Shown here in pieces: positions 1,124-18,976 of a DNA stretch of 64,000 nt (positions are counted from its first letter, which is position 1; each line of letters begins with the position of its first letter). A model generated the notes under the pieces. It made no database searches and was not told where the DNA came from. It saw only the letters and a program-made list of their open reading frames with translations. Source of the DNA: a virus; the IMG/VR virus record IMGVR_UViG_3300045988_093487. One strand, given 5' to 3'. The translations under genes were made by a program, and so were the position numbers.

Positions 1124-1137
1124 TCTAAAATAAGGAG

Positions 1138-1185: not shown

Positions 1186-1187
1186 AA

Positions 1188-1415
1188 ATGGCATATTATA
1201 CCTACGAGCAGTTGGTAAATAAGATAAATAATGGCGAAGTAATTTATTTCGTTAATGCTGAATGCGATATTACAGAGTTTTCTTTTGATGGTCATTATAA
1301 AATGACAATATCAAATCTAATGAAAGTTATTTTTAACAAAGAATTAACCGAAGAAGAATTTAATGAACGCTTCACATATTATGTGAGACATTTCAAGATT
1401 GGCGGTAAAAAATGA
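1188..1415 (+). CDS. hypothetical protein
   Basis: 75 aa ORF with ATGA overlap to next gene. Confidence 0.4.
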   Translation: MAYYTYEQLVNKINNGEVIYFVNAECDITEFSFDGHYKMTISNLMKVIFNKELTEEEFNERFTYYVRHFKIGGKK

Positions 1416-2615: not shown

Positions 2616-2640
2616 CAAAGCTAGAAAGTTTTGATATAAT
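2612..2640 (+). promoter_or_regulatory. sigma70-like promoter (TTGACA, 17 bp spacer, TATAAT)
   Basis: cttgacaaagctagaaagttttgatataat. Confidence 0.55.
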
Positions 2641-2663
2641 AACTACAGAAACGGAGAGATAGG

Positions 2664-3677: not shown

Positions 3678-3693
3678 TTATAAGGAGAAAAAT

Positions 3694-4656: not shown

Positions 4657-4666
4657 AATCTAACGA

Positions 4667-4700
4667 TTTAGCGTGGAGAAATCCACGCTTTTTATTTTGC
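4667..4700 (+). terminator. rho-independent terminator
   Basis: agcgtggagaaatccacgct hairpin plus ttttattttg. Confidence 0.6.
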
Positions 4701-4708
4701 AAAACCCC

Positions 4709-4737
4709 TTGACTTTTCCTAGCGTCTATGATATAAT
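4709..4737 (+). promoter_or_regulatory. conserved phage promoter (aaaaccccTTGACT, 17 bp spacer, TATAAT)
   Basis: member of a 14-copy promoter family with extended upstream aaaacccc and downstream TAtAGG. Confidence 0.65.
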
Positions 4738-4771
4738 AATGATGTCAAAGATGTTTGACAGGAGGGTTTAT

Positions 4772-6034: not shown

Positions 6035-6046
6035 GGAGGTATAAAT

Positions 6047-6952: not shown

Positions 6953-6957
6953 AGAAA

Positions 6958-6983
6958 TAACCGCCATTTGGCGGTTAAATACA
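6958..6983 (+). terminator. rho-independent terminator
   Basis: aaccgccatttggcggtt hairpin then aaatac. Confidence 0.5.
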
Positions 6984-7001
6984 TATAAAAGAGGTTGAAA
7001 T

Positions 7002-8207
7002 ATGGCATTAACTTTCTATGATACCAATGCCTTGCTGAGTCTGCGTGAAAGCGCATTTGTTGAGAAATTTGCGTGTTCTCATAAAACGCTTGAGGAAATC
7101 GAGAACATTAAGACATCCGGCAAGAAAGACGATGAAACTAGGTATCGCGCAAGGAAAGTGGCACACGCTTTTCAGGATGGAAACAATTACATCGTTTGCA
7201 ACTACCCTTATGACAGAATTGTTAAGGAATTGGCCGCAAGAGGGCTTGAGGTAACTCCAGACGCAATTATTACAACAGAAGCATATCTGTTAAATTCTGA
7301 AACAGATGATGTCGTTTTTGTTACAGATGATGTAAATTGCTATAACATTGCGAAAAACATCTTTTGTCTAAAGACAGAGACTCTAAATAGCATCAAAGAA
7401 GATATTTACGAGGGATATATTAAGATTAGCGGCACAACTGACGAAATCAATGAGCAGATGGACGTTATTGACATGTCGAAGTTGTATGCCAATGAATATA
7501 TTGTAATTGACGATAAGTCGATTGGCAAAACGAAAGAAATGCGTTTTGATGGTAAAAAATTTGTTGAATTAAAGCTACCACCGTCTGGGTTTATTAAGGG
7601 CAAGAATAGTTTGCAAAGATGCGCGCTTGATGCTTTAAACAACAAGGATATTGACATTGTTGCAATTCTAGGAACGTATGGTTCTGGCAAGTCCTTCTTG
7701 TCTATGCAGATGGGATTGTATGGTGTAAATGAGAAAGGCTATCAGTCCAAAATTCTCGGTGTGCGCGAAGCGCGTGGCGAAGGTAGTGCAGTTGGTTACT
7801 TGCCCGGAGAGTTTGAGCAGAAAGTTGGTGACTTCTTTAAGCCTTTGGAGCAACAGCTAAAGGGCGGTGAGTTCGAGTTGCAGAGTCTAAAGCAGCGTGG
7901 TGTACTTGATGTTCAGATTCCTTATTATCTAAAAGGAACTACTTACGATAGTACCATTATGGTTGTTGACGAAGCAGAGGATTTAACGGAATCACAGTTG
8001 CGTTTGGTTGGCACACGTCTTGGTCAGAACTCGAGAATTTTCTTTTCTGGTGACTATAAGCAGTCTCTAATCAATAAAACTATTAGCAATCCGCTCGTTA
8101 AGATGTGTGATGAATTTAAGGGTAGCCCTAATTTTGCTTGCGTATTTCTTGATACCGATGTTCGTAGTGAAGCATCTAAGATGTTTGCTACTTTGTTTAA
8201 ACAGTAA
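7002..8207 (+). CDS. PIN-domain + PhoH-like ATPase (YlaK-like)
   Basis: N-terminal PIN-like region; Walker A GTYGSGKS; PhoH-like C-terminus. Confidence 0.65.
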   Translation: MALTFYDTNALLSLRESAFVEKFACSHKTLEEIENIKTSGKKDDETRYRARKVAHAFQDGNNYIVCNYPYDRIVKELAARGLEVTPDAIITTEAYLLNSETDDVVFVTDDVNCYNIAKNIFCLKTETLNSIKEDIYEGYIKISGTTDEINEQMDVIDMSKLYANEYIVIDDKSIGKTKEMRFDGKKFVELKLPPSGFIKGKNSLQRCALDALNNKDIDIVAILGTYGSGKSFLSMQMGLYGVNEKGYQSKILGVREARGEGSAVGYLPGEFEQKVGDFFKPLEQQLKGGEFELQSLKQRGVLDVQIPYYLKGTTYDSTIMVVDEAEDLTESQLRLVGTRLGQNSRIFFSGDYKQSLINKTISNPLVKMCDEFKGSPNFACVFLDTDVRSEASKMFATLFKQ

Positions 8208-8214
8208 TTGAATT

Positions 8215-8577
8215 ATGTATTTGCCTAATCATTTTGAAGCTATCGACAAGAGCGTTTTGAATGATAAGGCCAGATATAAAGAAGACTTTGGCGATATGTA
8301 TAGTTTATTGCTGGGTCTTCTTTCTACATCTGGCATCTATCCGAAGCATTCTTTAGATTATAACAAGATAACACTGGAGTTCGACGTAGATAACCGTATG
8401 TTGCAGATTATGATTTCTGACTTGTATGGTATGTATACATACGTAAACTATAACTCCGTAAGTAACGTAGTTACGTTAAATCTAGCTAGTTGGACTACCT
8501 ATGGTAAAATTTACCAGTTAGCCAACGCTATCTACGAATCCTACTTTAGATTGAAGAAAAATTCAAAAACCCCTTGA
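8215..8577 (+). CDS. hypothetical protein
   Basis: 120 aa ORF. Confidence 0.4.
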   Translation: MYLPNHFEAIDKSVLNDKARYKEDFGDMYSLLLGLLSTSGIYPKHSLDYNKITLEFDVDNRMLQIMISDLYGMYTYVNYNSVSNVVTLNLASWTTYGKIYQLANAIYESYFRLKKNSKTP

Positions 8578-8601
8578 CTTTTCTGTTAAAATATGGTATT
8601 A
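8573..8601 (+). promoter_or_regulatory. conserved phage promoter
   Basis: aaaaaccccTTGACT, 17 bp spacer, TATTAT. Confidence 0.6.
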
Positions 8602-8643
8602 TATAGATGTTCCAAAAAATCTTGAATAAAAGGAGAATTGAGA

Positions 8644-8967
8644 ATGGTTGTTAAGGTCGATGAAGCAAAGAAAGCAAACAGAGTCGCGTATACTGAAACA
8701 TGGTATCTCGATAACATTTCGTCAGTGAAATTTTATACACTCCCGACTGATGGTGAAGCTAATATGCCCATTATGGAAGTATACAGCCGTAGCGATAACA
8801 CCATTGATGGAGTTGAGCCACTCAAGTATGTTATGGGTGAGAATCAGCAGAAGGTTACTCTTATGACTGATACTGGGCATATTATAGAAAAATTTGGGTA
8901 CGAAGCTGTTTCTAATGGCTGGGCTGTTCACGATGGGGATGGAAGCCCGATTATGAAATCTAAGTAA
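8644..8967 (+). CDS. hypothetical protein
   Basis: ATG after RBS aaaggagaattgaga; the ORF track starts at an upstream TTG. Confidence 0.45.
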   Translation: MVVKVDEAKKANRVAYTETWYLDNISSVKFYTLPTDGEANMPIMEVYSRSDNTIDGVEPLKYVMGENQQKVTLMTDTGHIIEKFGYEAVSNGWAVHDGDGSPIMKSK

Positions 8968-8986
8968 AAAATATTCTCTAAACCCC

Positions 8987-9015
8987 TTGACAAAATTACA
9001 TTTTTATGGTAAAAT
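8987..9015 (+). promoter_or_regulatory. conserved phage promoter
   Basis: ctaaaccccTTGACA, 17 bp spacer, TAAAAT, followed by the GGTGTTCAAGG leader motif. Confidence 0.55.
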
Positions 9016-9072
9016 ATTGGTGTTCAAGGAGGTGCGAGAACCATAAGGAAAAACGGCTTTTTGACCGCTTTG

Positions 9073-9258
9073 ATGAATTTTGGAGTTAGTGAAAAAGATG
9101 CAACCGATTTTGCTAATAAAGTCATCAATATGGGCGGTAAGGTAAGTTACGAAGGCGCTTATCATACTTGGGAAACCGAAATGATTAAGGCCGGAATCGC
9201 ATCTACAAAAGATAAGATGGTTGCAAAAGATACAATCAGCAATAAATTATTTGGATAA
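9073..9258 (+). CDS. hypothetical small protein
   Basis: short ORF; start uncertain. Confidence 0.3.
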   Translation: MNFGVSEKDATDFANKVINMGGKVSYEGAYHTWETEMIKAGIASTKDKMVAKDTISNKLFG

Positions 9259-9273
9259 AAGGAGTATCTAATT

Positions 9274-10773
9274 ATGGCAAATTTTGCAAATGCAGTTCGT
9301 GAATCTGCACGAATGACTACTACCGCAAATGGAGCAAAGTGCTACAATACCACTGGTAGCAAGATGCTTGACCTGTTCTCTACCGCTGGTGGTATGCGTA
9401 CTCGAATCAACGATGTTCGCGATGCGTTCTCTGCGGCATGGAACGAGAATCCCGAGCTGGCAATTAAGCTGGCTTTCTATTGTCGTGACGTGAGAGGTGG
9501 ACAGGGTGAACGTGACGTTGCACGTGAGATGCTTCGTTGGGTTGCGGAATATCATCCCTCTACCATGCGTAAGAATTTGAAGTTCTTACCTGAGTATGGT
9601 CGATGGGACGATATTTACGTCTTTGTCGGCACTAAGGTCGAGAATGACGTATGGCAGATGGTTCGTGAACAGTTTGCCGAGGACATCAAGAATGTCAATT
9701 CTGGCAAGTCCTGTTCTCTGATGGCTAAGTGGCTGAAGTCCGTCAACACCTCTTCTAAGAAGTCTGTTGAACTTGGTCGTTTGACTGCTCGTAAGCTGGG
9801 GCTGTCTTATATGCAGTATCAGAAAACTCTGGCTAAACTGCGTAAGTACATTAACGTGACCGAGGTTAATATGTCTGCAAACAAGTGGACTGATATTAAC
9901 TACGAGGCCGTCCCTTCTAAGGCAATGACCAACTATCGTAGCGCATTCGCTCGTCACGACCACGAAGGATTTACCGACTATATCAACGCTGTTAAGGCTG
10001 GAGAAAAGACTATTAAATCTAACACTCTGTATCCTTATGACCTTGTGCATCGGTACATGGGCGGTGGTGGCATGGTTTCCTATCGTTCCGGTTACTACAA
10101 CTGCGGTGGTCTGGCAGACAAGGAAGATGCTGTTGTTGAAGCACAGTGGAGGGCACTGCCCAACTACATTGATGGAAACCATAACGTGATGGTTATGGCA
10201 GATACATCCGGTTCTATGCGCGGTCAGCCCATTGAGTCTGCGCTTGGCCTTGCAATGTATTTTGCAGAGCGCAATAGCGGCCCTTATAAGAATCTGTTTA
10301 TGACCTTTAGTACCAATCCTTGTTATGTCACTCTGGATGAACAGAGTATGCTTGGCAATCTGAAGAAGGCCGCAAAAGCTGACTGGATGGGTTCTACCAA
10401 CCTTGAAGCTGCCTTTGCTAAGATTCTCAAGACTGCGACTGACAACCACCTGACTGATGACGAGCTGCCCAAGGCACTTGTTATCATCTCGGATATGCAG
10501 TTCAATAAGTCGTTGATTCAGGGAGACAACTACTTCGACTCTATGAAGAATATGTATGCCGCACATGGTTATACGCTTCCCCATGTCGTGTTCTGGTGCG
10601 TAAATGCTTGGGCTGGTTCTACTCACCACAATAACTATAACGACTATGTTACTGCATTTAGCGGTAATGCCGCAAGCACTTTCCGTGATGTTCTCGGAAC
10701 TATCGGTTATAATGCTTACGAGGCTATGCTGAAGGTTCTGAATGGTGAGCGTTATGCGCAGATTCATGCCTGA
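9274..10773 (+). CDS. vWA-domain protein with TROVE/DUF2828-like N-terminal region
   Basis: MIDAS MADTSGSMRG in the C-terminal half; large N-terminal domain; family assignment from memory, not verified. Confidence 0.5.
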   Translation: MANFANAVRESARMTTTANGAKCYNTTGSKMLDLFSTAGGMRTRINDVRDAFSAAWNENPELAIKLAFYCRDVRGGQGERDVAREMLRWVAEYHPSTMRKNLKFLPEYGRWDDIYVFVGTKVENDVWQMVREQFAEDIKNVNSGKSCSLMAKWLKSVNTSSKKSVELGRLTARKLGLSYMQYQKTLAKLRKYINVTEVNMSANKWTDINYEAVPSKAMTNYRSAFARHDHEGFTDYINAVKAGEKTIKSNTLYPYDLVHRYMGGGGMVSYRSGYYNCGGLADKEDAVVEAQWRALPNYIDGNHNVMVMADTSGSMRGQPIESALGLAMYFAERNSGPYKNLFMTFSTNPCYVTLDEQSMLGNLKKAAKADWMGSTNLEAAFAKILKTATDNHLTDDELPKALVIISDMQFNKSLIQGDNYFDSMKNMYAAHGYTLPHVVFWCVNAWAGSTHHNNYNDYVTAFSGNAASTFRDVLGTIGYNAYEAMLKVLNGERYAQIHA

Positions 10774-10783
10774 TGTTTGACTA

Positions 10784-10815
10784 AACGGTGGCAACACCGC
10801 CACCGTTAATTTTTT
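10784..10815 (+). terminator. rho-independent terminator
   Basis: acggtggcaacaccgccaccgt hairpin plus taattttttaat. Confidence 0.6.
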
Positions 10816-10832
10816 AATCTAAAGGAGAAAAT

Positions 10833-12365
10833 ATGGTTAATCTTTTAGCATTTGTTCCTATTATCGCAATTATCGCTGTAATTGCATTGATTGTTATTGT
10901 TTTCAAGTCTTGCTATAAGAAAGCACCGCCTAATAAAGCGATGGTCATTACTGGGCCGTCTGGTAGCAAGACTGTTCATGGAAAGGCTTGTTTTGTCATT
11001 CCGCTGATTCAGCGTGTTGATTATATGTCCTTGGAGAATATTCAGGTAGATTTTACGTCTCGTGATGAGATTCCCACTAAGGACGCTATCAATATCAATG
11101 TTGATGCGGTTGCTAATATGGCTATTGATACCGACCCGGAGCGTATGGCGGTTGCCGCATCCAAGTTTCTTGGGTATTCTATCGCAGACATCCAGACGAT
11201 TGTTCAGCCTATTTTGGAAGGTAACATCCGCGAAATTATTTCTCAGACTACTCTGAAGGAACTGATTCAGGGAGACAAGAAACAGTTTGCTGAGAAGGTC
11301 ATGGAGAATGTCGCCCCAAACCTCGCAGACCTCGGTTTGAAGCTGACTACGTTTAACATCCAGAACTTCAAGGATAGAAACGGTGTGATTGAGAATCTGG
11401 GCATTGAGAATACTGTTCAGATTTCCAAGGACGCTAAGAAAGCACAGGCACAGGCAAAGGCTGAAATTGCCATTGCAGAAGCAGAAAGCGCACGTGCCGC
11501 AAATGAAGCACAGGTTGTAGCCGATGCTGAAATCGCTCAGAAGCAGAATGAACTGGCTATTAAGAAAGCACAGTTGAAGAAGGTAACAGAAGTTGAACAG
11601 GCTCGTGCCGATGCCGCTCGTGGAATTGAAGCAGAAGAGCAGCGTAAGGCGCAGGAAATTGCAACTGCAAACGCCAACCTTGCTCGTCAGGAAAAGGAAA
11701 TTGAACTGAAGGAACGTGAGGTTGCCATTAAGGAAAAGTCTCTGGAGGCAGAGGTTAAAAAGACCGCAGAAGCAAAGCGTTACGCAGACCAGCAGGCCGC
11801 AGATGCGCATTTGTATACTGTACAGCGTCAGTCCGAGGCTTCACTGTTCGACCGTCAGAAGAAGGCAGAAGCAGAGAAGGTTGAGGCTACCCAGAGGGCA
11901 GAAGCTGAAAAGATTACCTCTGAGGCAAAGCGTATTGCCGCAGAAAACGAAGCCGCTGGTATCAAGGCAAAGGGCATTGCAGAAGCAGAAGCTATTCGTG
12001 CAAAGGCACTGGCAGAAGCAGAGGGTACTCTGAAAAAGGCAGAAGCTATGCGTGAGTACGGTGATGCCGCAACTATGGATATGAAGCTGGCCGTTGCAAA
12101 GGCTTATATCGACAAGTTGCCTGATATTGCCGCCGCAGTTGCCGCACCTATGGCAAATATTGGCAATATCACTATGTATGGCGAGGGTAACACCGCAAAG
12201 CTGACTGGTGACGTTACCAAGACCATGAAGCAGATTACTGATGGCTTTACTGATGCTACTGGTTTCAACCCTATGATGCTGTTGTCTGGCGTTCTGGGTG
12301 GTAAGCTGGCCGCATCTAACAGCGGTTCTACCGTAAACGTCCATGTTGACGGTGATAATCAGTAA
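10833..12365 (+). CDS. SPFH/flotillin-like membrane protein
   Basis: N-terminal TM segment, SPFH-like core, long Ala/Glu/Lys-rich coiled coil typical of flotillins. Confidence 0.65.
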   Translation: MVNLLAFVPIIAIIAVIALIVIVFKSCYKKAPPNKAMVITGPSGSKTVHGKACFVIPLIQRVDYMSLENIQVDFTSRDEIPTKDAININVDAVANMAIDTDPERMAVAASKFLGYSIADIQTIVQPILEGNIREIISQTTLKELIQGDKKQFAEKVMENVAPNLADLGLKLTTFNIQNFKDRNGVIENLGIENTVQISKDAKKAQAQAKAEIAIAEAESARAANEAQVVADAEIAQKQNELAIKKAQLKKVTEVEQARADAARGIEAEEQRKAQEIATANANLARQEKEIELKEREVAIKEKSLEAEVKKTAEAKRYADQQAADAHLYTVQRQSEASLFDRQKKAEAEKVEATQRAEAEKITSEAKRIAAENEAAGIKAKGIAEAEAIRAKALAEAEGTLKKAEAMREYGDAATMDMKLAVAKAYIDKLPDIAAAVAAPMANIGNITMYGEGNTAKLTGDVTKTMKQITDGFTDATGFNPMMLLSGVLGGKLAASNSGSTVNVHVDGDNQ

Positions 12366-12384
12366 TCATTCTCTTTTAGATTCT

Positions 12385-12412
12385 TGCAGGGTGTATGCCC
12401 TGCTTTTATATG
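12385..12412 (+). terminator. rho-independent terminator
   Basis: gcagggtgtatgccctgc hairpin plus ttttat. Confidence 0.55.
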
Positions 12413-12506
12413 GGGTATTAGTCTAACTGGATAAAACATCACTCTCCTAAAGTGAATTTCTCCGTTCGAGTCGGGGATGCCCCACCAAAATTTTTCTTAA
12501 AACCAC

Positions 12507-12535
12507 TTGACAAATCGCAAAAAGTATGATAGAAT
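12507..12535 (+). promoter_or_regulatory. conserved phage promoter
   Basis: aaaaccacTTGACA, 17 bp spacer, TAGAAT, then tataGGTGTTCCAAGGGGAAC leader hairpin. Confidence 0.6.
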
Positions 12536-12573
12536 ATAGGTGTTCCAAGGGGAACAGAAAGAAGGTATATTAC

Positions 12574-12786
12574 ATGAAATGTGACGCTGTAAAAGTACAC
12601 GAGTCGATTCCTATGACACCGAAGCGTCTTTATGAGTGGGCTGTTGCAAACGGTGTTGAAGATTGTCAGATGTATTTTCCGGCAGACGAGTTTATGACCG
12701 ATGTTGACTTGACAATGGATTGTATGCACAAAGAATATCGTGGTTTTGGTAAGAACAAGGAAATGGTAGTTAATATCTGTGGGTAA
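12574..12786 (+). CDS. hypothetical protein
   Basis: ATG downstream of the promoter and leader; 70 aa. Confidence 0.4.
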   Translation: MKCDAVKVHESIPMTPKRLYEWAVANGVEDCQMYFPADEFMTDVDLTMDCMHKEYRGFGKNKEMVVNICG

Positions 12787-13087
12787 TTGTACGATGGTTT
12801 TTGTATATGAACTGAAGTACGCTGATAAACGCAAATTAGTTCCAGTCACAGAGAGTCCGAAGACGAGGACAATTGCTACGGTGATTAACAAAGTTACTGG
12901 AAACGATGTTAAGCGTTTGTATAATCGCCTGAAGCGAAGTGGCAATATGCCACAGATGGAGCATCTAAAAGATGGGAACTACCGTATTATGTATATGGCA
13001 CTGCCTAATGGGTTGAAGTTTGACCCATTCTATAAAGGTGGAACATATTACAGAGGAAGGAGCGTATTTGACCGTGATGACACTTGA
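12779..13087 (+). CDS. hypothetical protein
   Basis: 102 aa ORF overlapping its neighbours. Confidence 0.3.
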   Translation: MGNCTMVFVYELKYADKRKLVPVTESPKTRTIATVINKVTGNDVKRLYNRLKRSGNMPQMEHLKDGNYRIMYMALPNGLKFDPFYKGGTYYRGRSVFDRDDT

Positions 13088-13862
13088 TGATAGAATGAAA
13101 ACTTATTATGAGGGTGCATATCGTGTTTATCTGACGCGGCGTATGCCAGTCATTATCCGAATCGACTCTCGTGCTGGGCACACCTTCACAAAGAATCTGA
13201 AAAAGCCTTTTGATGCAGTTTTCACTGCAACTATGCAGGATACAATGAAGTATCTGTGTGAAAACATTCAGGGCTGTGTAATTGGTTATACGCAGTCTGA
13301 TGAAATTACTTTGTGCCTTGTTGATTATGACAAGCTGGAAACCGATGCTTGGTTTGGTTATAATCTAAACAAGCTGGTAAGCCTTAGTGCATCAATGGCT
13401 ACGTTGGCGTTTAATAAGTATTTTGAACGTAATGCCAATAGAACCCTCACCAAGATGGCATTGTCCTCTGGTGTGAATAAGTTTGAAATTGACGCTTACT
13501 CTGCTACATTGGCAAAGTGTAAAGAAAAGGGTTTGTGCTTCGATTCTCGCGCCTTTAATATCCCGAAGGAAGAGGCATGTAACTGTTTCTTATGGAGACA
13601 GCTTGACGCTTCTCGAAACAGTATTCAGGCGGTCGGTCAGGCAAACTTCTCGCATACTGTTCTGAATGGCAAGAGTACGTCTGAAATTCAGGATATGTTG
13701 ATGACCGAAAAAGGCATCAACTGGAACGACCTTGCGACTGAATTAAAGCGTGGCTCTTGCTGTGTACGAGATGGTAATGGCTGGTCTATTGACCGCGAGA
13801 TTCCTAAGTTTACCGGCGAAGGCCGTGACTATATTGATAAGCTGGTTTTTGTTGGAGAATAA
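13077..13862 (+). CDS. Thg1-like tRNA-His guanylyltransferase / 3'-5' polymerase
   Basis: IRIDSRAGHTFTK...KPFD...GYTQSDEITL matches the Thg1 catalytic core (RxDGRxFHxF, KPxD, YGQSDE); start codon uncertain (13020, 13077 or 13095). Confidence 0.65.
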   Translation: MTLDDRMKTYYEGAYRVYLTRRMPVIIRIDSRAGHTFTKNLKKPFDAVFTATMQDTMKYLCENIQGCVIGYTQSDEITLCLVDYDKLETDAWFGYNLNKLVSLSASMATLAFNKYFERNANRTLTKMALSSGVNKFEIDAYSATLAKCKEKGLCFDSRAFNIPKEEACNCFLWRQLDASRNSIQAVGQANFSHTVLNGKSTSEIQDMLMTEKGINWNDLATELKRGSCCVRDGNGWSIDREIPKFTGEGRDYIDKLVFVGE

Positions 13863-14357: not shown

Positions 14358-14386
14358 TTGACAAATGATAAAAAATCTGGTATAAT
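14358..14386 (+). promoter_or_regulatory. conserved phage promoter driving the tRNA operon
   Basis: aaaaccccTTGACA, 17 bp spacer, TATAAT; leader hairpin GAGGAACgaaaGTTCCTC. Confidence 0.65.
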
Positions 14387-14421
14387 AAGGGTGTCAAGAG
14401 GAACGAAAGTTCCTCAAATAT

Positions 14422-14494
14422 ACGTCGGTAGTTTAACGGTAAAACAATGGCCTCCAAAGCCAGAAGATGATGGGTTCAAATCCCTCCCGGCGTG
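14422..14494 (+). tRNA. tRNA-Trp(CCA)
   Basis: acceptor acgtcgg/ccggcgt; anticodon loop ctCCAaa; GGGTTCAAATCCC T-arm (T-stem weakly paired); no encoded CCA. Confidence 0.55.
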
Positions 14495-14501
14495 TTTATA
14501 T

Positions 14502-14576
14502 GCGCTTATCGTTCAATGGATAGGACAAAACTCTTCTAAAGTTTTTATGTGGGTTCAATTCCTACTAGGCGTACCA
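14502..14576 (+). tRNA. tRNA-Arg(TCT)
   Basis: acceptor gcgctta/taggcgt; D-stem gttc/ggac; anticodon stem aaact/agttt with loop ctTCTaa; T-arm gtggg-ttcaatt-cctac; 3' CCA encoded. Confidence 0.7.
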
Positions 14577-14578
14577 CA

Positions 14579-14662
14579 GACGCATACAGCAATCCATAAA
14601 TTTTAATGGTTTAAAAAGAATGCTTAAAACAATCTTTCACGGTTCGATTCCGTTCTGCGTCT
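14579..14662 (+). tRNA. atypical tRNA-like gene (possible Leu-TAA, non-canonical D region)
   Basis: acceptor agacgca/tgcgtct (7/7) and cggTTCGATTccg T-arm, but about 14 extra nt around the D-arm; candidate anticodon arm gaatg-cttaaaa-caatc. Confidence 0.3.
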
Positions 14663-14739
14663 AATTTTTAGTTATTCTTCATCTTTATCTGAACTCGATA
14701 GACACGAACAGCAACACTTTCTTTGTTCGCGCCACTAAT

Positions 14740-14812
14740 TGCGAATATAGTTTAGATGGTTAGAACGCCACACCAAAATGTGGAGACGTGGGTTCGAGTC
14801 CCACTTATAGTT
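14740..14812 (+). tRNA. tRNA-like element / probable tRNA pseudogene
   Basis: canonical D-arm (tagtttagatggttagaac) and T-arm (gtgggTTCGAGTcccac) but a 6-nt anticodon loop (ccaaaa) and a poorly paired acceptor. Confidence 0.3.
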
Positions 14813-14823
14813 GTGTCTAATAT

Positions 14824-14896
14824 GCCCGGTTAGTCAAGTTGGCTAAGACGAGTGACTCTCAATCACTAGGCGGCAGTTCAATCCTGCCACCGGGTA
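14824..14896 (+). tRNA. tRNA-Glu(CTC)
   Basis: acceptor gcccggt/accgggt; anticodon stem agtga/tcact with loop ctCTCaa; T-arm ggcag-ttcaatc-ctgcc. Confidence 0.6.
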
Positions 14897-14901
14897 CTTT
14901 A

Positions 14902-14929
14902 TGGTCGAGTAGCTCAGTTGGTTAGAGCA
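14902..14929 (+). pseudogene. 5' fragment of a tRNA gene (acceptor + D-arm only)
   Basis: ggtcgagtagctcagttggttagagcag matches the 5' third of the tRNA-Lys and tRNA-Ile genes in this cluster, then diverges; lies next to the endonuclease gene. Confidence 0.45.
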
Positions 14930-14944
14930 GTAAATAAATGAGGT

Positions 14945-15703
14945 ATGAATATGGTAAACTCAAAGATGAAGGGTAATATTGCAGAATCGCGTGTTCTTTA
15001 TGAATTTGTTTAGAGGGGAATACCAGTTTCAATACCTTATGGCGATAATGAACGCTATGATATGATAGCGGAATTTAATGGGAAACTGAACAAGATACAG
15101 ATAAAGTTTTGTAATCAACAGATAGTTGATGGTTCGATAAGTTGCCCATGTTCTAATATAGTGAGTCCATTAACAAAAAGTAAGCACAGGGAATTATATG
15201 TTAATGACGTTGATTATATGGCATTTTACATATATGTATGGGATGTTGCTGTTATAATTCCAACAAGTTACATAGGGAATAGGATTCAGATAAAGATTAG
15301 AAAAGAACGCACAAAGAATAATCAAACTACAGCATCTACTTTTGTTGATGATTTTACATTTGATAAGATTGTTGGTACAGATATTCGTAATGTGATAGAA
15401 GAGCAACAAAATACCTACGAGAAGGCATATAATAGATGTATTGATTGTGGATGTATCATATCTGATAGAGCCGTAAGATGTTTAAAATGCAGAAACTTGA
15501 AGCAATACGAAGAAACAGCGAATCCGAATATGATAGATAGGGATACGCTCAAATCTATGATTAGAAATACACCGTTTAAGCATATTGCATCTATATGTGG
15601 AGTCTCGGATAACTGTATTAGAAATTGGTGTAAAAGGTATAATCTTCCATACCGCACATCTGATATTAAGAAATATACAGATGACGAGTGGAATGATATA
15701 TGA
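14945..15703 (+). CDS. Hjc/PD-(D/E)xK-type homing endonuclease with C-terminal Zn-finger/HTH, containing an in-frame TAG
   Basis: MNMVNSKMKGNIAESRVLYEFV-TAG-RGIPVSIPYGDNERYDMIAEFNGKLNKIQIKF matches Hjc-like nuclease motifs (GxxxE...D...K) across the TAG; CIDCGC...CLKCR zinc finger; the ORF track only shows the part from 15062. Confidence 0.5.
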
Positions 15704-15843
15704 TTTTGTTAGCTAATTACAAAAACAATATCCTACTGACATAATAATACCCATTTTTCGGTTTGGATAACAGCGCATAGGTATAAAAGTCTGTGATTAT
15801 TGGATAGGCTAACAATGACTGCTGGAAAGACAGCGTTTTATAT

Positions 15844-15920
15844 GCGGCAGTAGTTCAACTGGATAGAACAATCGGCTACGAACCGATAGGTTGCGAGTTC
15901 AAGTCTTGTCTGCCGTACCA
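15844..15920 (+). tRNA. tRNA-Arg(ACG)
   Basis: acceptor gcggcag/ctgccgt; anticodon stem atcgg/ccgat with loop ctACGaa; T-arm gcgag-ttcaagt-cttgt; CCA encoded. Confidence 0.7.
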
Positions 15921-16042
15921 GATAAATGAATCTTAAATTACGCTGGACAAAGGATAGCCTTTTATGGGAGACTGTTACGACAGTAACCCTGATTATCGGT
16001 GATGATGCTAACTCATGAGAGTGCGTAAGCCGACATTTATAT

Positions 16043-16118
16043 GTGCGTGTACTCGAATTGGCATAGAGAACGGTCTAAGAAGCCGTGTTTTGTGGGTTCA
16101 AGTCCCACCATGCACACC
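16043..16118 (+). tRNA. tRNA with anticodon AAG (Leu-like, short variable arm)
   Basis: acceptor gtgcgtg/catgcac; anticodon stem acggt/gccgt with loop ctAAGaa; T-arm gtggg-ttcaagt-cccac; A73; CCA encoded. Confidence 0.55.
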
Positions 16119-16122
16119 AGAA

Positions 16123-16243
16123 TACAGTATGGTTTCAATGGTAAAACATCACCCAAATAAGAATGTGTCTATGCAGACATAAGCCGCAACTGTTTTTCTT
16201 AAAAGCCAAGGTGAAGATGTCGGTTCGACCCCGACTGCTGTAT
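16123..16243 (+). tRNA. tRNA-like gene with about 50-nt insertion in the anticodon region
   Basis: perfect acceptor tacagta/tgctgta; D-arm gttt-caatggta-aaac; T-arm gtcgg-ttcgacc-ccgac; the region between D and T arms is about 55 nt too long and contains the hairpin tgtct-atgc-agaca. Confidence 0.35.
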
Positions 16244-16250
16244 TTATTAT

Positions 16251-16326
16251 GCGAGATTAACTCAACTGGAAGAGTGCCACTCTTACAAAGTGGAAGGTAC
16301 AAGTTCGAGTCTTGTATTTCGCACCA
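16251..16326 (+). tRNA. tRNA-Val(TAC)
   Basis: acceptor gcgagat/atttcgc; D-stem actc/gagt; anticodon stem ccact/agtgg with loop ctTACaa; T-arm acaag-ttcgagt-cttgt; CCA encoded. Confidence 0.7.
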
Positions 16327-16413
16327 TACGACAGTTTATAAGCAAAACAAGTTCTGTCGGTGATAAGACAAAAGACTTAATTGGCGGTTGAGTGACCTTA
16401 AACTCACCATTAT

Positions 16414-16529
16414 GGCTGTGTAGCTCAACTGGTAGAGCGCGTAAAACCTATCTATTTTAGATAGTAACAGCTACACATTTTTCCATTATAAGGACGAGGT
16501 TTATGGTTCGAGTCCATACGCAGCCACCA
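16414..16529 (+). tRNA. tRNA-like gene with about 40-nt insertion
   Basis: acceptor ggctgtg/cgcagcc; canonical D-arm tagctcaactggtagagc; T-arm tatgg-ttcgagt-ccata; CCA encoded; extra hairpin tatcta-tttt-tagata between the D and T arms. Confidence 0.35.
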
Positions 16530-16585
16530 GAAAATCTAAAAGAAGGGAAATGAATCCGATGCAGTAGATTGATAATAACAATCCA

Positions 16586-16822
16586 ATGGTTTTCTTTCAA
16601 ATGTTGGGTGAAGTTGCTGGTGACAACATCATGAGCAAGATTTCCCGACTAAAGATTGGTGAAGAAAACGGAATTGTTACTTTATATCTAAGAGATGAAC
16701 GCGAACCGTTCAACGATAGTGAACTTAGACAGCTAAAATACATCTTAGAAAGATGGTATGATATAATTTCTTTTAGGCGTGAAGATAGGCTTACTATGTT
16801 AGATATGAAGGTAAGAAAATGA
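16586..16822 (+). CDS. hypothetical protein inside the tRNA cluster
   Basis: 78 aa ORF; start uncertain. Confidence 0.3.
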   Translation: MVFFQMLGEVAGDNIMSKISRLKIGEENGIVTLYLRDEREPFNDSELRQLKYILERWYDIISFRREDRLTMLDMKVRK

Positions 16823-16920
16823 CCCTCCTTTATTTTTATATATAAAAAGACACATCCAGCAAACTTTTATTAAATTTTGAGTAGCCTTATGGTTCAATTT
16901 TTAATGTGTCTTTTAGATTT

Positions 16921-17008
16921 GCCAGTGTAGTTCAGTTGGTAGAACGCGGGTTTTGTAATCCCGATGCCGAAAGGGTTCTCGCAGGTTCAAGTCCTGTCAC
17001 TGGCTCCA
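16921..17008 (+). tRNA. tRNA with anticodon TGT (Thr-like) and a 17-nt variable region
   Basis: acceptor gccagtg/cactggc; D-arm gttc-agttggta-gaac; anticodon stem cggg(t)/(t)cccg with loop ttTGTaa; T-arm gcagg-ttcaagt-cctgt; CCA encoded. Confidence 0.5.
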
Positions 17009-17009
17009 T

Positions 17010-17085
17010 GCCACTTTAATTCAGTAGATAGAATGATGCGTTCGTACCGCATACGTCGTAGGTTTAATTCCTACAGGTGGCTCCA
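17010..17085 (+). tRNA. tRNA-Thr(CGT)
   Basis: acceptor gccactt/aggtggc; D-stem attc/gaat; anticodon stem atgcg/cgcat with loop ttCGTac; T-arm gtagg-tttaatt-cctac; CCA encoded. Confidence 0.7.
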
Positions 17086-17222
17086 ATCGCACCTATACCG
17101 TGGTAGAATAGGTATAGGCAAGTATTTTAACTACCGTGTCCATAGAGTTAATGGACTTGGGAGGTACTGACAAGACAGAAGAGCAAGTACCATGCACGTG
17201 GGCGGGTATTCGTGCTTTCATT

Positions 17223-17300
17223 TGCGTTCGTAGCTCAGTTGGTTAGAGCAATCGCCTTTTAAGCGATGGGTCGGGAGTTCGAGTCTCTTCGGGCGCACCA
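17223..17300 (+). tRNA. tRNA-Lys(TTT)
   Basis: acceptor gcgttcg/cgggcgc; D-arm tagctcagttggttagagc; anticodon stem atcgc/gcgat with loop ctTTTaa; GTTCGAGTC T-loop; CCA encoded. Confidence 0.7.
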
Positions 17301-17453
17301 CGCGGTAAGTAGTTTTCGAGTTGCGACTATTGTAGCTGGTATTCGTAAAAAATATAGTAAATGCGTGATATGACAGTATGCCGTGTTTGTGTTAAGGAAC
17401 AAGCACATTGCGGATAAACCGATGACTGCTGGAAAGACAGCAATTTATGTTTC

Positions 17454-17530
17454 CATAGCTCAGTTGGTTAGAGCGCAATCCTGATAAGATTGAGGTCGAA
17501 TGTTCAATTCATTCTGGAAACACCACTTAT
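17454..17530 (+). tRNA. tRNA-Ile(GAT)
   Basis: acceptor gtttcca/tggaaac; anticodon stem caatc/gattg with loop ctGATaa; T-arm gaatg-ttcaatt-cattc; CCA encoded. Confidence 0.7.
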
Positions 17531-17648
17531 TTTTGAAGTATTATAAAGATACTTTGAAATCTGATAGAAAATATCGTGTATTCACTAGGTATGAAACCGC
17601 TGGATGCAACGATACTCGCGTTATGCCTTTAGTAATCAAGGCATAATA

Positions 17649-17739
17649 TGTGGTAGTACCCAAGAGGTTGAAGGGGCTTGCTTGGAAAGCAAGTAGGCGG
17701 CGTATACCGTGCAGGGGTTCAAATCCCTTCTACCACGCC
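17649..17739 (+). tRNA. tRNA-Ser(GGA), type II
   Basis: perfect acceptor gtggtag/ctaccac; 3-bp D-stem; anticodon stem cttgc/gcaag with loop ttGGAaa; 19-nt variable arm; T-arm agggg-ttcaaat-ccctt; G73 and CCA encoded. Confidence 0.7.
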
Positions 17740-17866
17740 ACGACCGTAAAGATGAACAAAATAGAGCATACGGTGTTACAAAACCGTCTCGGAGTGATTG
17801 TACCACAGGGAGATTTAACGGAGTATATGCTCGATGTGTGGTTCGCAAAACCTAAATTGCAAATGT

Positions 17867-17941
17867 GCGTCATGCGCCAGACGGCTAGGCGAGAGACTGC
17901 AAATCTCTTTTAGATTGGTTCGACTCCAATATGACGCTCCA
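17867..17941 (+). tRNA. tRNA-Cys(GCA)
   Basis: acceptor gcgtcat/atgacgc; anticodon stem agaga/tctct with loop ctGCAaa; T-arm attgg-ttcgact-ccaat; CCA encoded. Confidence 0.7.
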
Positions 17942-18200
17942 GTAAATGAGAATCAAAGCGGACTGGTAAAGGGATGCCTTTAGGAGCAGACCGAACTGTT
18001 GTGATAGATGTACACTATCACGCTTTGCGGTGCTCTGATTAGTGGTTTTGATGCCAACAATGGTGTTCGCGCCACCCCATCATTTATCCTCAAGCTGGCT
18101 TGAGAAACGATACTCGGAAGGGTATCACGCCCCACCGTGGGAGAAAGCGGTAGTCCGGGTCGGGACTAGAGAATACGACCACGCGATATTTGATGGATGG
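17942..18200 (+). other. about 260-nt structured non-coding region after the tRNA cluster
   Basis: no credible ORF; several perfect hairpins (gtgatag-atgtaca-ctatcac, ctcaagc-tgg-cttgag, tagtcc-gggtcg-ggacta); GC-richer than its surroundings. Confidence 0.3.
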
Positions 18201-18201
18201 G

Positions 18202-18240
18202 AACGAGTGAGTACGATTCGTTCCCAATTTTTATTATTTA
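18202..18240 (+). terminator. rho-independent terminator ending the tRNA operon
   Basis: gggaacgagtgagtacgattcgttccc hairpin plus aatttttattattt. Confidence 0.65.
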
Positions 18241-18258: not shown

Positions 18259-18970
18259 ATGAAGAAACTGCTAGGAGCTATCATTGCTTTGCTTACAACA
18301 TTCGCAATAATTTGCGCTGTGGCAGTTCCGTCAAAGGCGGCAGATTTTAGTGACAAGTTTGAATTATACGAATCGTGGAATAACAATCTAAAAGTATATA
18401 CAAGAGAAGTGAGCGAGGAACTTGATGTTCCGTATTCTGCGTTAGTTGCTATTATCTATCACGAGTCAAGATTTAAGAACGATGTTGGCACAAGCTATAT
18501 TGGCCTAATGCAAGTTGGATGTACGTCAGATATTTTGAATTTTCTTTCAAATAATGGACTAAAAACATCTAAGAAAGGTTTGTATAACCCAGAGACAAAC
18601 ATTAGAGCTGGTGCATTGATTCTTAGATACGCAATGGATAAAGCCACAAATATGGAAGATGCGTTCTATATTTATACTTGCGGCGAGGGTGCTGTAAAAA
18701 AGCGAAAGGCGAACGGTCAGAAGAAAAATAAAGCTACTATTGAAATTACAGAGCTTTATTACGAATATTCTGAATACTTTGCTGAATAGGGTAAATCTGA
18801 TTATCGACAGTTCCTATTAGATGAACTAAATGGGGTTCAGTCAGAACTCGACGAGACGAACGGTTTGCTTCAGTCTTGTGAAGTGTATCAGTCCGACTAT
18901 TACAACCAGCAGTTGTTGTTTATAGAGCAAAAGATAGACTTCATAAATTCTGAATTAAAAAATTTAGAAT
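18259..18970 (+). CDS. lytic transglycosylase (SLT domain) with signal peptide; in-frame TAG at 18787-18789 then a 60-codon extension
   Basis: signal peptide MKKLLGAIIALLTTFAIICAVA; SLT motif ESRFKNDVGTSYIGLMQV; after the TAG the frame stays open for 60 codons (GKSDYRQFLLDELNG...ELKNLE) to a TAA at 18968-18970, just before the next promoter. Confidence 0.55.
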
Positions 18971-18976
18971 AACCTC

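What the first reader, a model, noticed from the sequence alone, without database searches (positions are those of the whole stretch)
14422..17941. No amber-suppressor tRNA (CTA anticodon) found in the window despite apparent TAG recoding
- Twelve reasonably canonical tRNAs (Trp-CCA, Arg-TCT, Glu-CTC, Arg-ACG, AAG, Val-TAC, TGT, Thr-CGT, Lys-TTT, Ile-GAT, Ser-GGA, Cys-GCA) and five atypical tRNA-like genes were folded by hand.
- None presents a CTA anticodon in a canonical 7-nt loop.
- Candidates for a non-canonical suppressor are the atypical elements at 14579-14662, 14740-14812, 16123-16243 and 16414-16529. The last two contain CTA within their insertions.
- The suppressor may lie elsewhere in the genome. 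Alternatively, recoding may rely on the host or on release-factor manipulation.
Basis: partly seen in the sequence, partly recalled or inferred. Interest (0 to 1): 0.6.

Follow-up and report, generated by a model that had tools for sequence, protein, structure and literature searches.

The report
Amber suppressor tRNA lies outside window
This gut phage really does read the stop codon TAG as glutamine, and the tRNA that most likely does this is missing from the window only because it sits about 40 kb upstream, where every sampled relative carries an odd five-armed tRNA that standard tRNA finders overlook.

Summary
ARAGORN, Rfam and my own scans find no CTA, TTA or TCA anticodon in the window. 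TAG recoding is real: Pfam domains run across in-frame TAGs, and in relatives in-frame TAG aligns with CAG/CAA in 44 of 51 informative cases, so TAG = Gln.

The four proposed in-window candidates are not suppressors:
- 16414-16529 has one canonical reading: a 40-nt insert in the anticodon stem and anticodon UAU.
- 16123-16243 is a tRNA body under structural selection with a 49-nt insert. Its CTA lies across a hairpin stem and a hypervariable loop.
- 14741-14812 and 14578-14662 are aberrant tRNA-likes without CUA.

Walking the genome through relatives found two more tRNA clusters. In all seven contigs that cover the left-arm cluster there is a nearly invariant ~100-nt tRNA. It has a Gln-type acceptor (U1-A72, G2-C71, G3-C70, G10, G73), a CUCUAAA loop (anticodon CUA), and a second, CUG-bearing anticodon-like arm. 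ARAGORN misses it; Rfam scores it 42 bits.

So the missing suppressor is a window-boundary effect. Many public contigs break exactly at window position 1. The suppressor's architecture and the short inserts in several tRNA genes are unusual. That the window's own genome carries the suppressor is inferred, not shown.

The parts
14358..14386 (+). Perfect sigma-70-type promoter (TTGACA-17-TATAAT with TG) that heads the tRNA array
   Evidence: 12 of 12 matches. The same CCCCTTGACAAAT motif occurs at 12507 and heads the suppressor cluster and the ROOL RNA in L235.
14421..17941 (+). tRNA array with 12 canonical tRNAs: Trp-CCA, Arg-TCT, Glu-CTC, Arg-ACG, Leu-AAG, Val-TAC, Thr-TGT, Thr-CGT, Lys-TTT, Ile-GAT, Ser-GGA, Cys-GCA. 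No Gln tRNA and no CTA anticodon.
14578..14662 (+). Aberrant tRNA-like (element D): perfect 7-bp acceptor AGACGCA/TGCGTCT, 8-bp anticodon-type stem with one A-A mismatch, loop CUUAAAA (anticodon position UAA, not CUA)
   Evidence: Rfam 22.9 bits, below the gathering score; fold; near-invariant in L001-L005
14741..14812 (+). Aberrant tRNA (element A): good D, anticodon and T arms, mismatched acceptor stem, 6-nt anticodon loop CCAAAA (CCGAAA in L002/L005, 7-nt CUACAAA in L004)
   Evidence: Rfam 43.6 bits; alignment
14903..14934 (+). 5' remnant (32 nt) of tRNA-Phe(GAA). The 3' 46 nt present in L001/L002 have been replaced by the endonuclease cassette.
14951..15703 (+). PD-(D/E)XK (PDDEXK_5, I-Ssp6803I family) + HTH homing-endonuclease-like ORF with an in-frame TAG at 15011-15013
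16123..16243 (+). Element B: tRNA body (U1-A72 acceptor, D arm, 5-bp anticodon stem 16149-16153/16210-16214, T arm) with 56 nt (16154-16209) in place of a 7-nt loop. The insert folds into a 6-bp closing helix plus a 7-bp hairpin.
   Evidence: ARAGORN -i 101.7; three compensatory pairs, 99% of cells paired, 0 of 500 shuffles reach the covariation score; no excision gives U33
16414..16529 (+). Element C: tRNA with a 40-nt insert (16443-16482) in the 5' strand of the anticodon stem. Removing it gives CGUCC-AUUAUAA-GGACG, anticodon UAU (16487-16489), with encoded CCA.
   Evidence: Rfam 45.9 bits; enumeration of excisions gives one canonical solution; insert invariant in five relatives
18198..18226 (+). 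Intrinsic terminator (11-bp stem + T run) that closes the array transcription unit
18259..18972 (+). SLT transglycosylase ORF with an in-frame TAG at 18787-18789 and a 60-codon extension conserved in five relatives
59105..62464 (-). Tail-fibre-like late ORF with three in-frame TAGs (62104, 62080, 61636). The first aligns with CAA in three relatives.
56140..56592 (-). Membrane (lysis-cassette) ORF with an in-frame TAG at 56274-56272 inside a PF06541 domain match, next to the M15 endolysin at 55511-56140
2..13862 (+). RNA-repair / tRNA-maintenance island that flanks the array: RNA ligase, RlaP nucleotidyltransferase, AAA_33 kinase + HD, PIN + PhoH, DUF2828 (TROVE-like) + VWA, SPFH, tRNA-Arg(CCT), Thg1-like

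Best explanation
The window is the first 64 kb of a contig from an SPbeta-like phage of gut Firmicutes, with a genome of about 150 kb. The phage translates its late genes, and a few others, with TAG read as glutamine.

The array at 14421-17941 is one of three tRNA clusters. It is a single promoter-to-terminator unit and simply does not contain the suppressor.

The suppressor is encoded in the left-arm cluster, about 39 kb upstream of window position 1. It is a ~100-nt, five-armed tRNA:
- a glutamine-type acceptor stem and discriminator;
- a normal D arm;
- a first anticodon arm, GCGCU-CUCUAAA-AGCGU, that presents CUA;
- a second arm, copied from an ordinary tRNA-Gln(CUG) anticodon arm, in the position of a long variable arm;
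- a weak T arm.

Inferred mechanism: the RNA is transcribed from a host-type promoter. It is charged with Gln by the host system through its acceptor identity set, possibly helped by the CUG decoy arm and by a phage YqeY-like tRNA-Gln-binding protein. The CUA arm then decodes UAG.

The atypical in-window elements are other things:
- two insert-bearing tRNA genes, one a probable tRNA-Ile(UAU);
- two aberrant tRNA-likes;
- a tRNA-Phe truncated by a homing endonuclease.
For: Shown:
- No CUA, UUA or UCA tRNA in the window.
- TAG = Gln: in late ORFs of L153-L156, in-frame TAG aligns with CAG 23 times and CAA 21 times among 51 non-TAG cases. Domains are continuous across TAG in the window.
- Direct sequence of the nearest relative (IMG/VR contig 122016, 99% identical Thg1, array near-identical) from 11.9 kb to 133.9 kb holds no other tRNAs except two tRNA-Ser.
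- A second cluster (Met, Asn, Gln-UUG, Pro, Asp, Ala, Leu, Ser, Ser) has no CUA.
- The left-arm cluster holds a tRNA at L235:7768-7867. Rfam scores it 42.3 bits (E 6e-8), with CUCUAAA aligned as the anticodon loop and 25 nt inserted in the variable region. The MFE fold is a five-arm cloverleaf. ARAGORN default misses it.
- It is nearly invariant in all seven contigs that cover that cluster, from several samples, while the neighbouring tRNA genes vary.
- L235 is 90-92% identical to the window genome's relatives over their overlap.
- The second arm, with its AAGGC-A leader, matches the D-stem 3' strand plus anticodon arm of an ordinary tRNA-Gln.
- No other suppressor-type anticodon arm exists in any of the ~260 loci.
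- A YqeY-like protein and PTH2 lie 1-2 kb upstream of the window start in L110.
- Many long contigs begin exactly at window position 1.

Inferred:
- Which arm enters the ribosome.
- The charging route.
- That the window's own genome carries this tRNA.
Against: - The suppressor was seen only in relatives about 90% identical in the overlapping flank. That stretch is about 4 kb shorter than in L235, so cluster content may differ.
- About 2 kb between the left-arm and right-end contigs was never sampled.
- The tRNA is invariant, so there is no covariation support for either arm.
- Its T stem has only 3 clean pairs.
- Its z-score against shuffles is only -1.2.
- A five-armed RNA with a 7-nt-loop 'variable arm' has, to my knowledge, no proven precedent as a decoding tRNA. 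It could be a recombination product that needs processing, or one that decodes with the CUG arm.
Confidence: 0.72

Rival explanations
1. One of the atypical in-window elements (16123-16243, 16414-16529, 14741-14812 or 14578-14662) is processed or edited into the amber suppressor.
For: - The elements are conserved, and B is under structural selection.
- B has a U1-A72 first pair, like tRNA-Gln.
- The array sits in an RNA ligase / kinase / nucleotidyltransferase / Thg1 island that could in principle remodel RNAs.
- CTA trinucleotides occur in both inserts.
Against: - No single excision in B or C yields a loop with CUA at positions 34-36.
- The CTA of B spans a hairpin stem and a tetraloop that differs in every relative.
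- C has one clean solution, UAU. tRNA(UAU) is a recurrent member of these phages' tRNA sets.
- A and D show no CUA.
- A bona fide CUA tRNA exists elsewhere in the relatives.
Confidence: 0.04
2. This particular genome encodes no suppressor. UAG is read by near-cognate host or phage tRNA-Gln (CUG/UUG) after phage interference with release factor 1, or by a host-encoded suppressor.
For: - Borges et al. (bioRxiv 10.1101/2021.08.26.457843) detected TAG suppressors in only 40% of TAG-recoded phage genomes.
- The phage group carries ordinary tRNA-Gln(UUG) and sometimes tRNA-Gln(CUG).
- From general knowledge, RF1-deficient E. coli inserts mainly Gln, Tyr and Lys at UAG.
- I could not read the window genome's own left arm.
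Against: - No release-factor, synthetase or evident RF-modifying gene is among the annotated window ORFs.
- All seven relatives whose left arm is available carry the CUA tRNA.
- The 40% figure is explained at least partly by detector failure of the kind seen here.
Confidence: 0.12
3. The five-armed RNA is a precursor. Phage RNA-repair enzymes (PIN-PhoH nuclease, kinase/phosphatase, RNA ligase) excise one arm to give a 76-nt tRNA-Gln(CUA) or tRNA-Gln(CUG). The same pathway removes the 40-75-nt inserts from other tRNA genes. This would amount to protein-catalysed tRNA splicing in a bacteriophage.
For: - Deleting the 24 nt UGCGCUCUCUAAAAGCGUUAAGGC leaves a perfect class I tRNA-Gln(CUG). Deleting the second arm leaves a class I tRNA(CUA). 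This follows from reading the sequence.
- Short structured inserts recur in anticodon loops of high-scoring tRNAs in related phages.
- The closing stems of the L114 and L118 inserts show compensatory changes, and insert-free alleles exist.
- The heal-and-seal enzyme set is adjacent.
Against: - No cleavage or ligation data exist.
- No bulge-helix-bulge motif is present, and no Rfam ribozyme or group I hit was found.
- Insert positions and architectures differ between genes.
- RNA-repair islands are well explained as counter-defence against host anticodon nucleases.
Confidence: 0.12

Closest known systems
Phage-encoded amber suppressor tRNAs in TAG-recoded (code 15) gut phages: crAss-like, Lak, and the Garnet, Amethyst, Sapphire, Agate and Topaz clades (Borges et al., bioRxiv 10.1101/2021.08.26.457843)
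   Same: - In-frame TAG is concentrated in structural and lysis genes and in a homing endonuclease.
- Early genes use the standard code.
- The host appears to use the standard code (sigma-70-type promoters).
- TAG is read as Gln.
- The suppressor is encoded by the phage.
- Genome size is about 150 kb and the host is a Firmicute, as for the Agate clade.
   Different: - The suppressor here is ~100 nt with five arms, including a second, CUG-bearing anticodon-like arm. ARAGORN does not call it.
- It lies in a separate ncRNA cluster with a ROOL RNA, far from the lysis genes.
- No RF2 or synthetase gene was seen.
- Membership of a named clade was not tested.
supE (glnV) amber suppressor, tRNA-Gln(CUA) of E. 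coli
   Same: Gln acceptor identity set (U1-A72, G2-C71, G3-C70, G10, G73), with anticodon CUA retaining U35. Stated from general knowledge of GlnRS identity elements.
   Different: supE is a 75-nt class I tRNA that differs from its parent by one anticodon base. The phage RNA carries an additional complete anticodon-type arm.
Class II tRNAs (Leu, Ser, bacterial Tyr, Sec) with a long variable arm
   Same: The arm order is acceptor, D, anticodon, extra arm, T. Infernal places the extra 25 nt in the variable region.
   Different: - The extra arm has a 6-bp stem and a 7-nt anticodon-like loop, and a 6-nt linker precedes it.
- It is derived from a tRNA-Gln anticodon arm.
- The amino-acid identity is Gln, which is a class I-shaped tRNA everywhere else.
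Group I introns in bacterial and phage tRNA anticodon loops, including the I-Ssp6803I-bearing intron of tRNA-fMet
   Same: Interruptions sit in the anticodon arm of tRNA genes. A PD-(D/E)XK endonuclease of the I-Ssp6803I family is associated with a tRNA gene in the array.
   Different: - The inserts are 40-75 nt, far below group I size, and give no Rfam hit.
- The endonuclease cassette replaced the 3' half of tRNA-Phe rather than sitting in a spliceable intron.
Phage T4 Pnkp/Rnl1 tRNA repair and the RNA-repair gene neighbourhoods described by Burroughs and Aravind (RlaP, TROVE/VWA, Thg1, ligases)
   Same: The enzyme set is the same and lies next to tRNA genes. A Y-RNA-like (YrlA-type) RNA and a TROVE-like protein occur in the same genome group.
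   Different: No function was tested here. The link to insert removal is only a hypothesis.

Membership tests
Amber suppressor tRNA (CUA), within the window | tRNA cloverleaf with CUA at positions 34-36 of a 7-nt loop | tested here: not met
   none in 64 kb on either strand
Amber suppressor tRNA (CUA), in relatives' left-arm cluster | Match to the tRNA covariance model above the gathering score, with CUA aligned to the anticodon | tested here: met
   RF00005 42.3 bits (gathering score 29), loop CUCUAAA aligned to model positions 32-38; present in 7 of 7 contigs
Amber suppressor tRNA (CUA), in relatives' left-arm cluster | Aminoacylated and used by the ribosome to insert Gln at UAG | not testable with these tools
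   Only indirect evidence: TAG aligns with CAG/CAA, and Gln identity nucleotides are present (read from the sequence)
Code 15 (TAG = Gln) recoded phage | In-frame TAG inside conserved domains or ORFs | tested here: met
Code 15 (TAG = Gln) recoded phage | TAG positions correspond to Gln codons in orthologues | tested here: met
   44 of 51 informative alignments are CAG or CAA; 62104 aligns with CAA
Code 15 (TAG = Gln) recoded phage | TAG avoided as a genuine terminator | tested here: met
   3 of 81 plus-strand ORFs end in TAG. One is an artefact over a tRNA and one is the read-through SLT ORF.
Group I intron in tRNA | Intron above about 200 nt with a conserved P1-P9 core (Rfam Intron_gpI) | tested here: not met
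   Inserts are 40 and 49 nt; no Rfam hit at E <= 10
Archaeal/eukaryal-type tRNA intron | Bulge-helix-bulge motif at the exon-intron junctions | tested here: not met
   Inspection of the folds found no 3-nt bulges flanking a 4-bp helix. No EndA-type endonuclease appeared among the Pfam-scanned ORFs, but not every small ORF was scanned.
tRNA (RF00005), elements A and C | Score above the gathering threshold | tested here: met
   43.6 and 45.9 bits
tRNA (RF00005), elements B and D | Score above the gathering threshold | tested here: not met
   D scores 22.9 bits. B is not reported by Rfam and is found only by ARAGORN intron mode at 101.7, although B's tRNA helices covary.
Y RNA-like (YrlA, RF02553) | Score above the gathering threshold (69 bits) | tested here: not met
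   Window 14845-14961 scores 19 bits, an artefact of the tRNA-Glu T arm followed by the tRNA-Phe D arm. L230:7855-7959 scores 39.5 bits, E 1.5e-6, with the permuted T arm-acceptor-D arm order, which is suggestive only.

The most novel reading that the evidence does not exclude
These SPbeta-like gut phages have remodelled tRNA architecture in two ways.

(i) Their amber suppressor is a two-headed tRNA. The CUA arm decodes UAG. A retained tRNA-Gln(CUG) anticodon arm, placed as a variable arm and perhaps acting with a phage YqeY-like protein, satisfies the anticodon-dependent Gln charging machinery. This would solve the usual identity problem of Gln suppressors.

(ii) Several of their tRNA genes carry short structured inserts. 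The adjacent PIN-PhoH / kinase-phosphatase / RNA ligase set would remove them, which would be a protein-only tRNA splicing pathway in a bacterial virus.
Probability: 0.15. Interest if true: 0.9.

Novelty: new variant of a known kind. Interest (0 to 1): 0.55.

Why it matters
- For the scan, 'no suppressor in a recoded window' is here a boundary and detector artefact, not evidence for a new read-through mechanism.
- About 60% of TAG-recoded phage genomes have no annotated suppressor. This case shows one concrete reason: a conserved CUA tRNA with an extra arm falls below ARAGORN's default threshold. It also lies on a genome arm that assemblies often split off.
- If the second arm does recruit the Gln charging system, it is a natural design for efficient Gln suppressors. 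That would interest genetic-code engineering.
- The insert-bearing tRNA genes next to an RNA heal-and-seal gene set give a testable lead on tRNA processing in phages.

Tried and rejected
- **ARAGORN intron mode at lowered thresholds.** It gave dozens of spurious calls, including 'tRNA-Stop' artefacts that span neighbouring tRNAs. These were rejected.
- **The 940-nt interruption after tRNA-Glu as a group I intron in tRNA-Phe.** Rejected: the 3' half of the tRNA is absent from the window.
- **The YrlA hit in the window.** Rejected as a juxtaposition artefact (19 bits).
- **Similarity search in the INPHARED phage collection.** No close relative was found; only tRNA and Thg1 fragments matched.
- **Genome walk for a canonical suppressor.** This used 8 viral scans, 1 metagenome scan and 3 protein searches with context look-ups. 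ARAGORN found none.
- **Genome contigs pattern scan for the double-arm motif.** No hits.
- **Genome-contig search with the primase-helicase.** It returned only a 2.6-kb contig binned with a Bacteroidales MAG, which says nothing reliable about the host.
- **Search for a DGR template/variable repeat pair near the RT.** None in 55-64 kb.
- **Inserts as dispersed mobile repeats.** Rejected: they are single-copy.
- **Literature searches** for short non-group-I tRNA introns in phages or for two-armed suppressors found nothing relevant.
- **The mature anticodon of element B** could not be assigned. No excision restores U33.

Full report
**1. Observation**

ARAGORN on the whole window reports 13 tRNAs. 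None is CTA, TTA or TCA.

Rfam adds three hits:
- 14741-14812 (43.6 bits);
- 16414-16526 (45.9 bits, with 51 nt between the three basal pairs of the anticodon stem);
- a sub-threshold hit at 14592-14661.

ARAGORN intron mode adds 16122-16244. My own scans for a perfect 5-bp stem, a 7-nt loop NU-(CUA/UUA/UCA)-RN and a downstream T arm found no tRNA-like candidate in the window.

**2. Is TAG really recoded, and to what?**

In the window:
- The PD-(D/E)XK domain of ORF 14951-15703 is matched end to end (profile 2-137 of 138, 75.3 bits) only when the TAG at codon 21 is read through. The standard-code ORF gives 27.2 bits.
- A membrane protein in the lysis cassette has a domain match that spans its TAG.
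- The tail-fibre-like ORF has three in-frame TAGs.
- The SLT ORF has a TAG conserved in five relatives, followed by a conserved 60-codon extension.
- Plus-strand (early) genes almost never end in TAG.

In four related genomes I compared orthologous late ORFs. TAG in one genome aligns with CAG (23 cases) or CAA (21 cases) out of 51 non-TAG cases. So TAG = Gln, as in code 15. Recoding is concentrated in late genes and in a homing endonuclease, as Borges et al. described.

**3. What the atypical in-window elements are**

Element C (16414-16529):
- Enumerating every single excision gives one fully canonical anticodon arm, CGU|40 nt|CC-AUUAUAA-GGACG, with anticodon UAU, U33 and A37.
- tRNA(UAU) genes recur in this phage group.
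- AUA is used at 9.4 per 1000 codons in early genes.

Element B (16123-16243):
- Acceptor, anticodon-stem and T-stem pairs show three compensatory double changes among six relatives. 99% of cells are paired, and 0 of 500 shuffles reach the covariation score. It is a selected tRNA-shaped RNA.
- 56 nt replace the loop, and no excision restores U33.
- Its CTA spans the last two stem bases and the first base of a tetraloop. That loop differs in nearly every relative.

Elements A and D:
- Element A has a 6-nt loop and a mismatched acceptor stem.
- Element D has an 8-bp anticodon-type stem and the loop CUUAAAA.

The fifth element:
- It is the first 32 nt of tRNA-Phe. L001 and L002 have the intact gene.
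- In the window and in L003-L005, a PD-(D/E)XK + HTH cassette replaced the 3' 46 nt.

None of these is a plausible suppressor.

**4. Where the suppressor is**

The nearest relative is IMG/VR contig 122016 (148.6 kb). Its Thg1-like protein is 99% identical to the window's, and its array is near-identical apart from the tRNA-Phe locus and the tRNA-Leu allele. I walked outward from the window through related contigs.
- Direct sequence of contig 122016 from 11.9 to 133.9 kb holds no further tRNAs, except two tRNA-Ser at its low end.
- Relatives at 97% identity show that those two belong to a second cluster: Met, Asn, Gln-UUG, a YrlA-like RNA, Pro, Asp, Ala, Leu, Ser, Ser.
- On the other side, about 30-40 kb upstream of window position 1, relatives carry a third cluster.

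In the third cluster Rfam reports a 97-nt tRNA that ARAGORN does not call. Its sequence is UGGGGUG-UU-GUCU-AACGGUCA-AGAC-U-GCGCU-CUCUAAA-AGCGU-UAAGGC-ACAGGA-CUCUGAC-UCCUGU-UAUGUA-GGG-UUCAAAU-CCC-AC-CACCCCA-G-CCA.

- Infernal aligns CUCUAAA as the anticodon loop, giving anticodon CUA, and places the next 25 nt as a variable-region insertion.
- The MFE structure is a five-arm cloverleaf.
- The acceptor carries the glutamine identity nucleotides U1-A72, G2-C71, G3-C70, G10 and G73. I take this identity set from established E. coli GlnRS work.
- The second arm and its AAGGC-A leader match the D-stem 3' strand plus the anticodon arm of an ordinary tRNA-Gln. The gene therefore looks like a fusion that kept two anticodon arms.
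- It is present and nearly invariant in all seven contigs that cover this cluster, although neighbouring tRNA genes come and go.
- A scan of all ~260 loci found no other suppressor-type anticodon arm.

**5. Why the window lacks it**

The array is a self-contained unit, with a perfect promoter at 14358-14386 and a terminator at 18198-18226. Many long public contigs begin exactly at the RNA ligase gene, which is window position 1. The window's source contig probably lacks the left arm as well.

Two contigs that encode window-identical proteins, ERZ27227159:k141_100992 and ERZ27306777:k141_166442, extend 42-45 kb upstream. They should contain the cluster, but I could not read that far.

**6. Mechanism**

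Shown:
- TAG is read as Gln.
- A conserved CUA tRNA with Gln-type acceptor features exists in the lineage. It sits downstream of a host-type promoter carrying the same CCCCTTGACAAAT motif as the two promoters in the window; whether that promoter drives it was not tested.

Inferred:
- The CUA arm decodes UAG.
- The CUG arm, the acceptor set, or both secure charging with Gln.

A YqeY-like protein is encoded 1.5-2 kb upstream of the window start in the nearest relative, next to a PTH2 peptidyl-tRNA hydrolase. From general knowledge, the YqeY domain is related to the tRNA-Gln-binding tail of GatB and to the C-terminal domain of Deinococcus GlnRS. It is a candidate helper, but this is a lead, not a result.

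An alternative is that one arm is excised to give a 76-nt tRNA.

**7. Short inserts in tRNA genes**

Related phages have high-scoring tRNAs with 47-75-nt inserts in the anticodon loop.
- Two tRNA-Leu(UAA) genes, in L114 and L118, carry homologous 47-nt inserts with compensatory changes in both helices. They are inserted at different loop positions.
- Insert-free alleles exist in L115 and L125.
- The inserts are single-copy. They give no Rfam hit and have no bulge-helix-bulge motif.

How these inserts are handled is unknown. The adjacent PIN-PhoH, kinase/HD and RNA ligase genes suggest a heal-and-seal route, but they are equally explained as anti-anticodon-nuclease repair.

**8. Comparison and verdict**

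The system is a member of the known class of TAG-to-Gln recoded gut phages that carry their own suppressor. The phage itself is SPbeta-like: YonJ, YonG, YonD and YomX domains and a YonO-type RNA polymerase appear in its relatives.

New variants of known kinds are:
- the five-arm architecture of the suppressor;
- the short non-group-I inserts in tRNA genes.

The main uncertainty is that the suppressor was read in relatives, not in this genome.

Noticed in passing
window 2-13862: RNA-repair / tRNA-maintenance island: RNA ligase, RlaP nucleotidyltransferase, AAA_33 kinase + HD, PIN + PhoH, DUF2828 (TROVE-like) + VWA, SPFH/flotillin, Thg1-like 3'-5' polymerase. A CCA-adding enzyme lies at 49346-50812.
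   Followed up: partly
L110:8021-8491 and L110:8878-9279 (1-2 kb upstream of window position 1 in the nearest relative): Free-standing YqeY-like protein (PF09424, 80 bits; the domain family related to the tRNA-Gln-binding tail of GatB) and a PTH2 peptidyl-tRNA hydrolase. These are possible code-change helpers.
   Followed up: partly
window 14903-15703: A PD-(D/E)XK (I-Ssp6803I family) + HTH endonuclease cassette, itself with an in-frame TAG, replaced the 3' 46 nt of tRNA-Phe(GAA). L001 and L002 keep the intact tRNA.
   Followed up: yes
window 16921-17008, 17224-17300, 16043-16119: tRNA-Thr(UGU) is 88 nt, with a GAAA-capped hairpin in the variable region. tRNA-Lys(UUU) gains an 11-nt variable-region insertion in L002, L003 and L005. 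tRNA-Leu is a 77-nt AAG form without a long variable arm here and in L002, but an 86-nt GAG form in L001, L003, L004 and L005.
   Followed up: partly
window 15820-15835 and 17427-17442: The same small hairpin, TGCTGGAAAGACAGC, precedes tRNA-Arg(ACG) and tRNA-Ile(GAU). It may be a processing signal.
   Followed up: no
window 24799-29344: The DnaE-type DNA polymerase III alpha is split into PHP/NTPase and finger/HhH ORFs by an ORF with a homing-endonuclease-associated HNH repeat.
   Followed up: no
window 62842-63741 (-) and 59105-62464 (-): A reverse transcriptase (RVT_1) lies next to a tail-fibre-like gene that carries three 168-nt tandem repeats. No template/variable repeat pair was found within 55-64 kb, so a DGR is not established.
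   Followed up: partly
window 18259-18972: The SLT transglycosylase has a conserved in-frame TAG and a conserved 60-codon extension. It could give a short form before suppression sets in and a long form afterwards.
   Followed up: partly
L230:7855-7959: A YrlA-type Y-RNA-like element (T arm, loop-closed acceptor stem, D arm; 39.5 bits, E 1.5e-6, below the gathering score) lies inside the second tRNA cluster. This fits the TROVE-like/VWA protein in the window.
   Followed up: partly
L235:8604-9165: A ROOL RNA (RF03087, 322 bits) is embedded in the suppressor-bearing tRNA cluster, behind its own TTGACA/TATAAT promoter.
   Followed up: no
L235:12254-12333, L216:3602-3681, L222:4331-4407: An odd tRNA, called 'Asn(AUU)', has anticodon loop CUAUUGU (a 6-nt CUAUGU in one relative), a mismatched anticodon stem and a 4-bp T stem. 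Its function is unknown.
   Followed up: no
L235:9281-9373: A 93-nt tRNA(UAU) shares the D arm and the 3-bp GGG/CCC T stem with the suppressor and also carries an extra region before the T arm. The two appear to share a scaffold.
   Followed up: no
L114:736-859, L118:812-947, L120:4460-4611, L128:1560-1700, L132:3341-3476: High-scoring tRNAs in related phages have 47-75-nt structured inserts in the anticodon loop. The L114 and L118 inserts are homologous, with compensatory changes. Insert-free alleles exist in L115 and L125.
   Followed up: partly
L248-L255, L260-L265 (contig ends); L232, L234, L241, L243-L245: Public assemblies break recurrently at the RNA ligase gene (window position 1), about 450 nt upstream of the left-arm cluster genes, and about 6 kb past the start of NrdD. 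This suggests genome termini or hypervariable junctions.
   Followed up: no
L232:10001-13985: The anaerobic ribonucleotide reductase NrdD of relatives is split by one or two HNH endonuclease ORFs.
   Followed up: no
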